A stretch of 63,616 nucleotides of DNA, filler included, from Octopus bimaculoides (taxonomy: Eukaryota): NCBI RefSeq assembly GCF_001194135.2. It is 9 parts of 7 records of this genome, joined end to end, with 100 filler letters (N's around TTAATTAATTAA, not from the genome) between each part and the next. Parts side by side here need not be neighbours in the genome. Positions count along the whole stretch, not along the records: positions 6,513 to 9,841 come from NC_068985.1; positions 9,942 to 17,297 come from NC_068982.1; positions 17,398 to 22,622 come from NW_026352595.1; 6 more parts are not named here. The stretch is one strand, 5' to 3'. This document shows positions 7,848-17,905 of the stretch, piece after piece. Made by a program: the position numbers and the translations under genes. Each line of letters opens with the position of its first letter. Position 1 is the stretch's first letter. The notes below the pieces were generated by a model. The model was not told where the DNA came from, ran no database searches, and worked only from the letters and a program-made list of their open reading frames with translations.

Positions 7848-8013
7848 TTAATAGACAGAAATTGCGTGAGAATCTACTAGAAGTATTGTTGATGTTCTCA
7901 GATGGTAGGCAAGTAATCTGTCAACCAGTTTAATACCTCCAGCTAGCCCTTGGATGACTTTAGCAGAGTCCAATCTGTCGCAAGCATGCAGGTCAGATTC
8001 TTCATGAGTTTGA
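7848..8013 (-). pseudogene. FAS-like pseudo-methyltransferase exon
   Basis: Poly-T acceptor ...ctttactggcctag|; QTHEESDLHACDRLDSAKVIQGLAGGIKLVDRLLAYHLRTSTILLVDSHAISVY* versus FASN LLDSPALKAC...[20 protein letters not shown]...SYTATDRH. Confidence 0.6.
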
Positions 8014-8485
8014 CTAGGCCAGTAAAGAAAAAAAAAAAAAATATTCAAGTTTAGAAGGAAAATGCAGTTATAAAAAATATCTATAATCTTCAACAGGGAG
8101 TGAATTAAAAAAGGAAGAGACAAATTTTTCATTGACTACACAAATATTCAGAACCAGAAAATAAACCAACTTCCGTAATGTAGAAATATAGGACACATTA
8201 CTCAAAATAGAAGATGTAAGTAAAAGCAACTAATCCACTTTGTATTTGTTAGAACAAACATTGGAAGCTTAAAAAAAAAAAAAGAATATGTTATGGTTCA
8301 GCTCTATGCAAGACTTACACTCCAAAGTATGTGCCAGAACAACATGGAGCTTGATGCAATAAACTAAACTAGCTCTCTCTAATCTGTAAAACTAAATTGG
8401 AAAAACCATAATGATTAGAAGGGTTCGGCTATGAGAGAGAGAGAGACAGAGACAGACAGACAGACAGACAGAGACAGACAGAGAC

Positions 8486-8516
<31 letters not shown>

Positions 8517-8539
8517 TAGACAGCTAGGGCAAATAGAAT

Positions 8540-8803
8540 TTAAATAAGTTTATTTTCATATTTGTGAAATGCTTCTGTTCGCTTGTCATCTGATGCCATT
8601 TGATATTTGGAAGACTTGAAAATTTGTGACAACAAATCTAGTTTTCTGAATCCATGGAATTGTGCAATAGCAAAACCAAAGTTACCAGGTCATGACAACA
8701 AATCTTTAGGAGCGATGACATTACTTAGTACCAATGAATTGAATAGTTCAGTCCCATAACAACACAACTCTCCCAGTGAAACAACAAGTCTCTTCACATA
8801 ATT
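8540..8803 (-). pseudogene. Degenerate FAS-like pseudo-methyltransferase N-terminal segment
   Basis: A frame of about 87 codons with one internal stop (NYVKRLVVSLGELCCYGTELFNSLV...*...GFRKLDLLSQIFKSSKYQ...EAFHKYENKLI*), positioned just before the DLHAC exon. Confidence 0.4.
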
Positions 8804-9121
8804 TCATTATCAGAACACACACAATTAAGTCAATGTGGAAGTGTGGAATAATGAGACAAGACTTTTTTTCTCCTCCCTGTGTGAGTATCATGTTAATAAA
8901 AGTGTTACTACTACTACTACTACCTGTTGCTGTTGCTGCTGATGATGATGATGATGAAGATGGGAGTGAAGATGATGGTAGCAACAGTGATGAGAAGGTG
9001 GATGGTGGTGGTGGTGTTGATGTTGTTGTTGGTGGTGATGATGATGATGGTGACAGTGATAAGGAAGTAGTGGTGGTGATGATATGATTGTGATGATGAT
9101 GACAATGGTGACAGCAGTATT

Positions 9122-9157
<36 letters not shown>

Positions 9158-9941
9158 GTTGATTTTCCTTAGAGAAAAATCCCTAATAATTAATCCAGCT
9201 TATCAAATTCTGACGGGTGTGGTCATGTTGATAGACTGTTGCTGGGATTTTGTTATTGAAAAAGGGGCGGGTAAAGTAGCAGATGATATTGTGGAGTATT
9301 TGTTGTCATAGAGATGATGATGATGACGGTGGCGGTAATGGCAGTGGAAATGAGAGAATTTGTGGAGATGGGGGGGGGGGGGTAAATAAACCAGATGTTG
9401 ATGGTACTAAAAAAAATGTTGATGTTAGCAATACTTTCTGATTGTATTGTTATGAATGCTAGCAGTGATTGCAGTGGTAACTTCAGGTTGAAATAGCTCT
9501 GGTGGTTTTGGTGATGAGGTTAATAACTGTTCTTTGAGGCAAGCTAACAGAAGGAAATGAAAAGGCAAAGGATTTCCGTTGGTACCATTTATCGTTTATT
9601 TGTTTCAGTCATGAGACTGCTGCCATGCTGGGGCACTACTTTGAAAAATTTTTTAGTCAAATGTATCAACCCCAGAACCTAGTTTTTCTTTTAAAGCCAA
9701 GTACTTATTCTATTGGTCTCTTTTGCTGAAGTTGTAAGTTACAGGGATGTAAACATACCAACAGCAATTATCAAGCAGTGGCTGGGGAACAAATACAGAC
9801 ACAAAGGCACACATGCACAAAGTATATATATATATATATATNNNNNNNNNNNNNNNNNNNNNNNNNNNNNNNNNNNNNNNNNNNNTTAATTAATTAANNN
9901 NNNNNNNNNNNNNNNNNNNNNNNNNNNNNNNNNNNNNNNNN

Positions 9942-10091
9942 AGCTTAAAGTTAGCCGTCATACGGCGACTGACAGCTTAAAGTTAGCCGTCATACGGCGA
10001 CTGACAGCTTAAAGTTAGCCGTCATACGGCGACTGACAGCTTAAAGTTAGCCGTCATACGGCGACTAACAGCTTAAAGTTAGCCGTCATAT
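9942..10091. repeat. 32-bp tandem minisatellite (at least 4.7 copies)
   Basis: Unit agcttaaagttagccgtcatacggcgactgac starts at 9942, 9974, 10006, 10038 and 10070; it abuts a gap. Confidence 0.95.
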
Positions 10092-10899
10092 GATGAATAA
10101 TTTAATTTTAAAGCCTACTAAATTGTAAGCTTTGAATTTCAACTTGTGAGTGGGGTCTTATTTTGTTCTGAGAAGAGATTCAAGGGTTGTAAGAAAACTT
10201 TTGACGTACGATGAGAGGAAAATAAAAGGAAATGGTAAAGGTTTAAGGAAATTATTTATTAAAATGTAACAATTTAAGGCAAAAGAAAAATGCTGGAGGT
10301 GAACCTTTGTTCTGCTCACTTCAATCATGAAGGCACGTGATTCCGTGGTTAGGTTATTCGGCTGTCGGATGCTAGTTCAATACCTGGCGAAGCGTTGTGT
10401 CCTTGAGCAAGTCACTTTATTTCATGTTGCTCCTTTAGTCGGGCAAAACGAACCCAGGACTTATTCTTTCTAAGCCTAGTACTTATTCTATCGGTCTCTT
10501 TTGCCAAATCGCTAGGTTACGGAGACGTAAAAACACCAGCATCGGTTGTCAAGCTATGTTAGGGGGGGGGACAAACACAGATACACACATATACATACGA
10601 CGGGCTTCTTTCGGCTTTCGTCTACCTTATCCACTCACAAAGCTCTGATCGGCCCAAGGATATAATAGAATACACTTGCCCAAAGTGCAATGCAGTGGGA
10701 CTGAACCCGGAACCAAGTGGTTGTTAAGCAAGCTACTTACCACACATCCACTACTGCGCCTATGTCAGATGTTAATATATATTTGATTCTTTTTTAAATC
10801 AGATTTTTAGTAAATCGTCTTGTAAACATGGTGAAATCACAGAAGGTAATCAAAGGTTTCAATGAGGTTGTAGATCTAGATTAATCTGGATTAATAGTC

Positions 10900-11040
10900 A
10901 AACGAATGCTGAGCCGAGATCTATTATACGAGTTTGATCTCCAAAGAAGATAAATCAAAGATCTTCAACAACTGTCGCCCCAACTGTTTCCAGTTTTATT
11001 TATAATAAATCAGAAACGATTCCACGGTGAAACAATCGCT
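10900..11040 (-). pseudogene. Degenerate FAS-like exon (end of DH2)
   Basis: After acceptor catttag| it reads AIVS, then after a 1-nt shift RGIVSDLL*IKLETVGATVVEDL*FIF, weakly like VTVAGGVHISGL...VPILEKFCF. Confidence 0.35.
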
Positions 11041-11127
11041 AAATGTTACATTATCAAATGTTAATTTTCTCTAAAATGGTGCCGTAAATAACAGGGAGTG
11101 AGTTTAATATGAGTAAATGTTTCTCAC

Positions 11128-16386: not shown

Positions 16387-16524
16387 CAGGGATCAAGAAC
16401 TGAGGCCAGCTTGGAACTGGCCATTCAAAAGAATGGTCCCAGCTAACAAGGTGACCAATTGATGGTGCAGTAGAATCAAGTGGAAGTACATCTTTATTAA
16501 CATTTCTAAATTTTTCATTTTTAC
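16387..16524 (-). CDS. FAS-like exon: post-MAT linker (WDHS motif)
   Basis: Acceptor tgtttgtttccag|, donor |gtaagt; 138 nt, phase 1-1, open: GKNEKFRNVNKDVLPLDSTAPSIGHLVSWDHSFEWPVPSWPQFLIP. Confidence 0.8.
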
Positions 16525-16538
16525 CTGGAAACAAACAG

Positions 16539-16569
<31 letters not shown>

Positions 16570-16811
16570 ATACATTAGTAGAAATATGTTTAAAAAAGAA
16601 AATAGAAACTACACGTGGAAAAGATATGGGGAAAGTAAGAAGAAAAAATAAGAAAAGCGAAAATGCACATTGGATATAAAAAAAGGCTTTTTATGGAAAA
16701 TAACGATAAATAAATACAATTAGATGAACTAAGGTAGAATTAAGAGGAATTAAATTCATTATTTTGAATTGTTAAAGAGATTCAAAGTCAAACCGGTATC
16801 GTCATTGCTGT

Positions 16812-17053
16812 TCACTGGCTTTATATATATAATGCAACAGAAATTGCTGAAACTAACGGTAGTCTTAGGAATTCCTGGTTGGTATATTTCGGACAATTAT
16901 GGTCCCTGTTAGAGCATGTTTTCATTTCTGTGCATGAACTACAGCATTAGAGCATTTTAGCTCTTATTTCTAGCAATATCGGTGTTTTTTTTTAACACCG
17001 TAGTCACATTTTAGTGACAATTAGAATTCTCCATTTTGGTGAAACGTTACAAC
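16812..17053 (-). pseudogene. Degenerate FAS-like MAT C-terminal exon
   Basis: One frame after an acagcag| acceptor reads GCNVSPKWRILIVTKM*LRC*KKTPILLEIRAKML*...NQEFLRLPLVSAISVALYI*, resembling FASN NNLVSP...HAVVLEIAPHALLQ...NLEFFLAGIGRLHL, with several stops. The alignment is by eye. Confidence 0.5.
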
Positions 17054-17178
17054 CTGCTGTTTATATTAATTTTATGATATGTATACACATTAGTGAATCG
17101 CTAAATCAGCCATTTATTTGGGTGACGGAAACATACTAATAGAGAAACAGGTCCGGAAAGGGCCGAACGCCGAGCTAG

Positions 17179-17227
17179 CTTAACTGATGAGGCAACAGAA
17201 AATGCCGAGACTGACGTCAGTCTTAAG
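17179..17227 (+). ncRNA. Minimal type I hammerhead ribozyme motif (A14G variant)
   Basis: Stem I CTTAA/TTAAG, core CTGATGA, stem II GGCA/TGCC, then GAGA in place of GAAA, palindromic stem III ACTGACGTCAGT and cleavage triplet GTC (cut after 17222). Confidence 0.75.
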
Positions 17228-17415
17228 AAATCTCGGTCGGCATTTTTCGGACAGAAAGAGTTTGGAAAGTATTAAAATTGCTTTTTTTTTTTTTTTTNNN
17301 NNNNNNNNNNNNNNNNNNNNNNNNNNNNNNNNNNNNNNNNNTTAATTAATTAANNNNNNNNNNNNNNNNNNNNNNNNNNNNNNNNNNNNNNNNNNNNGAT
17401 AAATAAGCATACATG

Positions 17416-17456
<41 letters not shown>

Positions 17457-17624
17457 GCACGCATACACACCCACACATATATGTGCGTGTATATATATAT
17501 ATGCGTGTGTGTTGTACTTTGTGTGGTGTCGTGTTATATAAACACACACGCACTGGTTATACTTCGCTCCAGAATTTTCATCAATTAATTAGAAACCAGC
17601 TAATTGATTGATTCATTGGTTTGT

Positions 17625-17905
17625 CAAAGTTCTTTCGTAACAGCCTGTGACCTTTCCCATGAAGATGTGACCCCTTGAGTGCAGTTCCTCTATTTAACCC
17701 TAATTCCTTTTTCTACCGCCGTATCTCAACGTCAAATTTGACAAACTAATTAATCCATTCATTTATATATTTATCTATTAATTAATTATATAATTAAAAT
17801 ATTATCTAATTGATGCTAAATAGTACCAGGGCGTAAGTTTTATTGATAGCACCGCGCTGAGAGTTGAATGCCATATCGGTTACAGCAGAAAACATCACAT
17901 CGCTA
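17625..17905 (-). pseudogene. Degenerate FAS-like MAT core remnants
   Basis: SDVMFSAVTDMAFNS resembles EGVFAKEVRTGGMAFHS. RVK*RNCTQGVTSSWERSQAVT resembles RSARWLSTSIPEAQWHSSLART. The order and spacing are right, but the matches are short. Confidence 0.4.

What the first reader, a model, noticed from the sequence alone, without database searches (positions are those of the whole stretch)
7848..17905. Hidden, unannotated-looking fatty-acid-synthase-like megasynthase locus split into small exons
No single ORF reveals it. Ten exon-sized segments on the - strand align by eye, in order, to FASN MAT, linker, DH and pseudo-MT. Divergence is extreme, so this is not a recent copy of the housekeeping FASN. 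It may be a cephalopod FAS-like/AFPK paralogue; molluscs are known to have animal FAS-like polyketide synthases.
Basis: partly seen in the sequence, partly recalled or inferred. Interest (0 to 1): 0.8.

Follow-up and report, generated by a model that had tools for sequence, protein, structure and literature searches.

The report
Carrier-less fatty acid synthase cousin
Five spliced exons here belong to an already annotated octopus gene of a mollusc-wide family of fatty-acid-synthase relatives that lacks the carrier and reducing parts but keeps the chain-releasing enzyme, and that likely acts on chains held by the ordinary fatty acid synthase.

Summary
Real gene, smaller and less hidden than claimed. 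Five minus-strand exons (16524-11128), not ten, splice into 208 residues identical to Octopus bimaculoides RefSeq LOC106872932; a spliced contig confirms them. They encode the post-AT linker and a double-hot-dog dehydratase fold without its catalytic His. No MAT or pseudo-MT exon is in the window. The gene belongs to AFPK mo-clade 4 (Lin et al. 2024), biochemically unknown. New here is its anatomy across 22 mollusc species: KS, dead AT (Ser to Gly, 22 of 22 rows), dead DH, dead ER, low-complexity tether, intact thioesterase; no pseudo-MT, KR or ACP. Octopus KS also lost its decarboxylation His. A centipede protein shares the layout. Best guess (0.4): a trans-acting partner that releases acyl chains from ordinary FAS.

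The parts
16387..16524 (-). Exon (138 nt): post-AT linker with the FAS-type W-D-H-S motif
15014..15114 (-). Exon (101 nt): start of pseudo-DH hot-dog 1; the catalytic His loop is deleted
14797..14917 (-). Exon (121 nt): pseudo-DH hot-dog 1 strands
13888..13972 (-). Exon (85 nt): end of hot-dog 1 and shortened inter-fold linker
   Evidence: 85-letter gap in the X1 contig
11128..11309 (-). Exon (182 nt): pseudo-DH hot-dog 2; catalytic Asp is Asn
9842..9941 (.). 100-nt artificial spacer, lower boundary of the piece that holds the five exons (not part of the gene)
17298..17397 (.). 100-nt artificial spacer, upper boundary of the piece that holds the five exons (not part of the gene)

Best explanation
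The five exons are the linker and dead dehydratase of an expressed AFPK mo-clade 4 gene whose protein has no acyl carrier, no ketoreductase and no working acyltransferase, and which likely works in trans as an accessory partner of the ordinary fatty acid synthase, releasing acyl chains from that enzyme's carrier. Shown: exon structure, splicing, family membership, domain order KS - pseudo-AT - pseudo-DH - pseudo-ER - helical segment - Ser/Pro/Thr-rich stretch - TE, and the residue states. Inferred: the protein cannot load, carry or reduce a chain by itself, so its thioesterase (and, outside Octopus, its intact KS) needs acyl-thioesters from another protein. It keeps exactly the domains that form the dimer axis of FAS/AFPK (KS, DH, ER) and has lost the lateral ones, so it would dimerise, with itself or with FASN. 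The TE on a flexible tether where KR-ACP used to be would reach the partner's ACP and change chain length or release, as rat thioesterase II does. In Octopus the KS would only accept or pass acyl groups (KS0-like). One chain from KS to TE in Octopus is inferred from overlapping models and from full-length orthologues. Identity about 0.97; the confidence below is for the mechanism.
For: Residue tallies over rows covering each site (26 rows, 22 mollusc species): KS Cys 21/21, Lys 21/21, second His 21/21, first His 19/21 (Asp in both Octopus rows); AT Ser is Gly 22/22, AT Arg lost 22/22; DH His absent 22/22, DH Asp kept 5/24; ER glycine loop position Asp/Asn 24/24; TE Ser 21/21, Asp/Glu 21/21, His 21/21. 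FAS pseudo-MT, pseudo-KR, KR and ACP profiles hit 0 of 25 proteins, DH 18 of 25, ER 24 of 25; hhalign agrees. Dimer contacts of EcPKS2 are KS:KS', DH:DH', ER:ER', DH:ER' (PMC11831141 passage). Separately encoded thioesterase II shifts rat FASN products (PMC11898469 passage). KS0 domains typically lack the HGTG His (PMC7327777 passage). Weak hint: in contig names of PMC10764717's supplements, clade-4 coverage is within 2-fold of FAS in 9 of 11 runs that list both, against 4 of 19 for PKS (one-sided p 0.016, post hoc).
Against: No biochemical or binding datum exists in anything I read. 11 of the 22 clade-4 runs list no FAS contig (the lists are non-redundant, so this is not absence), one of them with clade-4 coverage 2,419; two of the 11 pairs are far from 1:1 (0.18 and 0.02). 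The PKS control came from 2 of 5 parts of that sheet. Clade-4 KS is only about 40% identical to FAS KS, which may bar a heterodimer. Exons were seen in 2 of 4 runs laid and not in the raw-read RNA run X21, so expression is patchy. Keeping KS, DH and ER is equally expected of a homodimer. The O. bimaculoides KS itself is not in any record I fetched.
Confidence: 0.4

Rival explanations
1. A stand-alone homodimer that works on CoA thioesters: the KS condenses or transfers acyl-CoA without a carrier (as type III PKS or thiolase do) and the TE hydrolyses or transfers the product; the dead domains are scaffold.
For: KS triad intact in 19 of 19 gastropod and bivalve rows and TE triad in all; very high coverage in one run with no FAS listed; no ACP anywhere in the chain.
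Against: Octopus KS lost the decarboxylation His yet the gene is kept and expressed; type I KS domains normally bind ACP across the dimer interface; no reducing activity, so products would be limited.
Confidence: 0.27
2. Mainly a regulatory or structural pseudoenzyme (acyl-CoA or malonyl-CoA sensor, FASN damper, or tissue scaffold); only the TE matters catalytically, or none.
For: Three dead domains are kept folded with invariant replacements (AT Gly 22/22; ER Asp/Asn 24/24); Ser/Pro/Thr-rich stretch (22-36% against 19-21% overall); a lipid-binding PLAT insert in Haliotis.
Against: Both catalytic sets (KS and TE) are conserved across three mollusc classes and in the centipede protein, which points to catalysis.
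Confidence: 0.2
3. A complete iterative polyketide or fatty acid synthase whose carrier and reductase domains have merely diverged beyond recognition.
For: A conserved helical segment after the ER has no assigned fold and could be a cryptic carrier.
Against: It has no conserved Ser motif and no profile match to ACP (probability 0.2%); proteins are about 650 residues shorter than FAS; AT, DH and ER catalytic residues are gone.
Confidence: 0.05
4. A decaying pseudogene or chance match.
For: Extreme divergence; single exons barely score against FAS.
Against: Open spliced frame, RNA contig, 633 of 688 residues identical between O. bimaculoides and O. vulgaris, orthologues in 22 species.
Confidence: 0.02

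Closest known systems
AFPK mo-clade 4 (Lin, Li, Krug, Schmidt 2024, PMC10764717)
   Same: KS groups with XP_041375027.1 and the cluster of XP_022286280.1, both labelled clade4 in the paper's source data; only KS, AT and TE are called by domain libraries; all mollusc classes incl. cephalopods.
   Different: The paper says most of the protein lacks predictable similarity; here it resolves to pseudo-AT, pseudo-DH, pseudo-ER and a tether. Octopus KS has His-to-Asp in the HGTGT motif, unlike the 19 other rows.
[quoted passage not shown]
   Same: Same order KS-AT-DH-ER-TE; best sequence and fold matches; TE triad intact.
   Different: No pseudo-MT, pseudo-KR, KR or ACP; AT, DH, ER catalytically dead; TE carries an extra helical insert.
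EcPKS1/EcPKS2 (AFPK mo-clade 1)
   Same: FAS-like paralogues of molluscs; strong fold matches for AT and DH.
   Different: They keep AT, DH, KR and ACP and lack TE; this family is the reverse.
Mammalian thioesterase II (medium-chain S-acyl FAS thioesterase)
   Same: Proposed way of working: a separately encoded thioesterase that changes FASN products.
   Different: A small free hydrolase; the clade-4 TE is FASN-type (E 1e-39 against 0.02 to thioesterase II) and is tethered to a FAS-like scaffold. Not a member.
KS0 non-elongating ketosynthases of trans-AT PKS
   Same: Cys kept, HGTG His missing, in O. vulgaris and O. sinensis.
   Different: Bacterial assembly lines with cognate ACPs; unrelated origin.

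Membership tests
AFPK mo-clade 4 | KS falls in one clade with published clade-4 sequences, apart from FAS | tested here: met
   SH-aLRT 99 in two trees (73 rows LG+G4; 38 rows mixture model, quick tree), using O. vulgaris and O. sinensis KS; TE tree with the O. bimaculoides TE also 99 incl. Strigamia
AFPK mo-clade 4 | Only KS, AT and TE called by domain libraries | tested here: met
   Pfam: KS and weak AT in P0008, TE in P0001; same in orthologues, some with a sub-threshold ER hit
AFPK mo-clade 4 | Authors' HMM score window / AFPK-Finder clustering | tested here: inconclusive
   Tool not run. In their data the truncated O. sinensis KS scores FAS 335 / PKS 192, below the 400-600 window but within the range of rows they label clade4 (232-463); it carries no clade label there
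Animal type I FAS | KS Cys-His-His | tested here: not met
   First His is Asp in both Octopus KS rows; met in 19 of 19 other mollusc rows. O. bimaculoides KS not available
Animal type I FAS | MAT catalytic Ser and Arg | tested here: not met
   Ser is Gly 22/22; Arg lost 22/22
Animal type I FAS | Double-hot-dog DH fold | tested here: met
   pLDDT 85.7 model from clade rows only; Z 14.8, rmsd 3.0, 168 aligned to 6fn6; Z 14.5 to human FAS DH
Animal type I FAS | DH catalytic His and Asp | tested here: not met
   His absent 22/22; Asp is Asn in Octopus, kept in 5/24 rows
Animal type I FAS | pseudo-MT and pseudo-KR domains | tested here: not met
   0 of 25 by profile; 0-6% alignment occupancy
Animal type I FAS | ER with glycine-rich NADPH loop | tested here: not met
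   ER homology 99.1% but loop replaced, Asp/Asn at the Gly 24/24
Animal type I FAS | KR and ACP domains | tested here: not met
   0 of 25 by profile; no G-x-D-S-hydrophobic motif in 9 of 9 proteins checked
Animal type I FAS | TE Ser-Asp-His | tested here: met
   21/21 each, one Asp-to-Glu
AFPK mo-clade 1 (EcPKS) | No TE; active AT, KR, ACP | tested here: not met
   TE present, KR and ACP absent; clade definition
Thioesterase II-like action | Hydrolyses acyl chains on FASN's ACP in trans | not testable with these tools
   Needs an enzyme assay

The most novel reading that the evidence does not exclude
Molluscs, and at least one centipede, carry a second, carrier-less FAS subunit, older than the mollusc-arthropod split, that pairs with ordinary FASN through the KS-DH-ER axis and reprograms chain release with its own thioesterase: animal fatty acid synthesis run by a two-gene heterodimer.
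Probability: 0.18. Interest if true: 0.85.

Novelty: new member of a known kind. Interest (0 to 1): 0.55.

Why it matters
Mo-clade 4 is the one AFPK clade found in every mollusc class surveyed, and its discoverers could assign neither domains nor chemistry to most of the chain. The anatomy here (three dead domains with fixed replacements, two conserved catalytic sets, no carrier) says it cannot be a self-sufficient synthase and turns an open question into a few plain assays. If it partners FASN it would be a new way to tune animal lipid synthesis, relevant to farmed oysters, mussels, scallops and abalone. The gene and the clade are themselves already on record, which caps the score.

Tried and rejected
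No whole genome is held for this window, so the gene could not be followed past the piece. Single exons gave nothing useful against Pfam (0 of 11 minus-strand segments matched a FAS family) or PDB sequences (linker E 0.34); the spliced peptide scores only 11.0 bits on a FAS sequence profile, all from the linker (best of 1,000 shuffles 1.9), so DH identity rests on profile-profile and fold tests. Candidate exons near 17905, 13280, 13115, 12540, 8876, 8680 and 8013 score at or below zero on MAT, pseudo-MT and DH profiles. My early idea that the CA exon and this gene are interleaved antisense genes was dropped when the spacers were found. The idea that the helical segment after ER is a cryptic ACP found no support (Atlas leads under 0.9 point to the ER tail). 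ESM Atlas on the whole protein: best 0.75, no lead. Complex prediction of two copies of the pseudo-DH/pseudo-ER part: no verdict, score 0.00, alignment unused, fold uncertain; it counts neither way. No RNA holder was on record as RNA in the run search. The careful bootstrap KS tree did not finish; the quick tree is reported. Strigamia joins clade 4 at 98 under LG+G4 but only 88 under the mixture model, both long branches. Species or tissue for the runs named in the Lin supplements was not found. Paper searches for the accessions, for an octopus FAS paralogue, and for a pseudoenzyme reading found nothing relevant; 'mo-clade 4' occurs in one paper. A paper on mammalian FAS heterodimer complementation was not found, so that precedent is recalled only and not used as evidence. 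Earlier scan notes: none.
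Full report
1. Observation. The window is AT-rich animal DNA with 6,391 N. Reading the minus strand gave five convincing exons: 16524-16387, 15114-15014, 14917-14797, 13972-13888 and 11309-11128, all AG..GT, 627 nt, one open frame of 208 residues. A search with the last exon returned two proteins among 36 candidates: Octopus bimaculoides LOC106872932 (XP_014775595.1, 1,022 aa, 100% identical) and an O. sinensis 'fatty acid synthase-like' protein. The spliced peptide is residues 79-286 of the first. So the locus is real but annotated.

Splicing was checked on four runs over 10100-17290. One 4,211-nt contig of run X1 (depth 37) holds four exons head to tail without mismatch and leaves 85 letters where the 85-nt exon belongs; several intron bins are at zero depth. 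X3 shows one exon at depth 3.4. X21 (raw RNA reads, about 6 in 100 of the run read) and X2 (another organism) show none. The contig runs on 2,346 nt past the last exon, enough for the 735 remaining codons to the thioesterase, and 1,236 nt before the first, more than the RefSeq model's 78 codons; I saw lengths only, not those letters.

No other exon of the gene is in the window (tblastn with 11 related proteins; 12-mer scan; family profile over 2,437 six-frame pieces). The reason emerged late: eight identical 100-nt spacers cut the window into nine pieces, the five exons sit in piece 9942-17297, and both end points and the carbonic anhydrase exon (22396-22532, plus strand) sit in others. I infer that the spacers join separate short scaffolds.

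2. What the gene is. The O. vulgaris model (CAI9716890.1, 1,401 aa) adds KS and AT in front; the O. bimaculoides model adds a FASN-type thioesterase behind. They overlap over 688 residues, 633 identical. One chain from KS to TE in Octopus is therefore inferred, not seen in a single record; XP_014775589.1, a neighbouring accession scored as a KS in a published table, may be the split 5' half. Searches of 1.84 billion representatives and of the larger collection with a family profile found co-linear proteins of about 1,770-1,980 aa, named from Haliotis, Gigantopelta, Patella, Pecten and other scallops, oysters, mussels, unionids, plus partial ones from Pinctada, Solemya and Argonauta, scoring well above any FAS (full-length members 1,820-2,807 bits against at most 1,082).

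Lin et al. 2024 (PMC10764717; I read parts 1-5 of 7 of the text, searched the supplements, read two parts of the source-data file; figures and one scanned file not seen) define AFPK mo-clade 4: present in all surveyed mollusc classes, only KS-AT-TE predictable, most of the chain without recognisable similarity, biochemistry unknown. Their source data label XP_041375027.1 (my P0035) and XP_022286280.1 (same cluster as my P0193) as clade4. Octopus KS groups with both at SH-aLRT 99; the O. bimaculoides TE groups with the clade too. Trees used 73, 38 and 28 of the rows held, chosen by hand; no octopus FASN and no EcPKS sequence was available.

3. Anatomy. Profile-profile comparison with FAS domains: AT 99.85%, DH 99.0%, ER 99.1%, TE 100%; nothing for pseudo-MT, pseudo-KR, KR or ACP in any segment (best 15.5%, a stray AT-to-pseudo-KR match), and 0 of 25 proteins by hmmsearch. 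A 919-residue model (pLDDT 70.6, pTM 0.43) matches the FAS MAT domain (Z 29.3) and spans FAS 459-1857 in order, at high rmsd. Catalytic positions were located by motif in marmot FAS (residue roles and domain limits recalled from general knowledge) and tallied over 26 rows from 22 species, several of them close kin: KS Cys 21/21, Lys 21/21, second His 21/21, first His 19/21 with Asp in both Octopus rows; AT Ser-to-Gly 22/22, Arg lost 22/22, His kept 4/22; DH His absent 22/22, Asp kept 5/24; ER glycine-loop position Asp/Asn 24/24; TE Ser, Asp/Glu and His 21/21. After the ER come a conserved helical segment of unknown kind and a Ser/Pro/Thr-rich stretch. A Strigamia (centipede) protein shows the same layout and joins the clade at 98, 88 and 99 in the three trees.

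4. Mechanism. Shown: two conserved catalytic sets at the ends, three dead domains between, no carrier. Inferred: it cannot run a synthase cycle alone. The kept domains are those that make the dimer in EcPKS2, a homodimer like mammalian FAS (PMC11831141, passages). I favour (0.4) a trans-acting partner of FASN whose tethered TE releases chains from FASN's carrier, by analogy with rat thioesterase II (PMC11898469, one passage); in Octopus the KS resembles a non-elongating KS0 (PMC7327777, passages). The only data hint is post hoc: contig coverage of clade 4 lies within 2-fold of FAS in 9 of 11 runs listing both (6 of 7 without the four divergent rows), against 4 of 19 for PKS. Against it, 11 of 22 clade-4 runs list no FAS contig, one at coverage 2,419; two pairs are far from 1:1; depth of sequencing affects both values; and the KS domains are only about 40% alike. 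Rivals: a CoA-using homodimer (0.27), a regulatory or structural pseudoenzyme (0.2), a full synthase with a cryptic carrier (0.05), a pseudogene (0.02).

5. Novelty. The gene is annotated and the clade is published, so this is a member of a known kind. I found no paper that names these accessions or describes the dead-domain anatomy, the Octopus KS change or a myriapod member, but the library lacks most subscription journals, and the paper's Figure 4 and one scanned supplement, which I could not see, may show more of the architecture than its text. Interest 0.55: an ordinary discovery at the locus level, a good testable question at the family level.

Noticed in passing
window 6413-6512, 9842-9941, 17298-17397, 22623-22722, 29140-29239, 46854-46953, 50982-51081, 61135-61234: Eight identical 100-nt spacers cut the window into nine pieces of 2.4-17.6 kb. 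Adjacency across them should not be read as genomic neighbourhood; this matters for other findings from this window.
   Followed up: partly
window 22396-22532 (+): Single alpha-carbonic anhydrase exon (Pfam PF00194, E 1.6e-7; PDB matches) on another piece.
   Followed up: partly
P0105 (Strigamia maritima, UniRef T1IZ10): Centipede protein of 1,829 aa with the same layout: KS triad, AT Ser-to-Gly, DH- and ER-like parts by clade-4 profiles, no KR or ACP, TE with the clade's insert. Not found by name in the Lin supplements (one file unreadable).
   Followed up: partly
P0034, P0189 (Haliotis): A PLAT/LH2 lipid-binding domain is inserted between KS and pseudo-AT in abalone members.
   Followed up: no
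P0003, P0005, P0006, P0007: RefSeq isoforms skip exons at the DH-ER junction, removing parts of the pseudo-ER.
   Followed up: no
P0100 (Dreissena) and P0011 (unnamed, 65 aa): Clade-4-like KS records in which the catalytic Cys is also missing; may be model errors or further decay.
   Followed up: no
PMC10764717 supplement file 9, clade4 rows: A sub-group of 'clade4' contigs is longer (7.5-9.6 kb) and scores lower (FAS 232-330), with a different N-terminus; it may be a separate family.
   Followed up: no
window 9942-10090: Tandem repeat, 32-nt unit, 4.7 copies, 99% matches, with an internal palindrome, at the edge of a piece.
   Followed up: no
window 2439-2511 (-): Short Lys-rich frame after an AG acceptor, ending in a stop; looks like a terminal exon of some gene, no Pfam match, on another piece.
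   Followed up: no
window about 31730-32400, 33300-34100, 38200-38560, 44230-44460, 51080-51600, 54590-55100: Stretches that read by eye like decayed DNA-transposon and LINE remnants; labels recalled, not tested.
   Followed up: no
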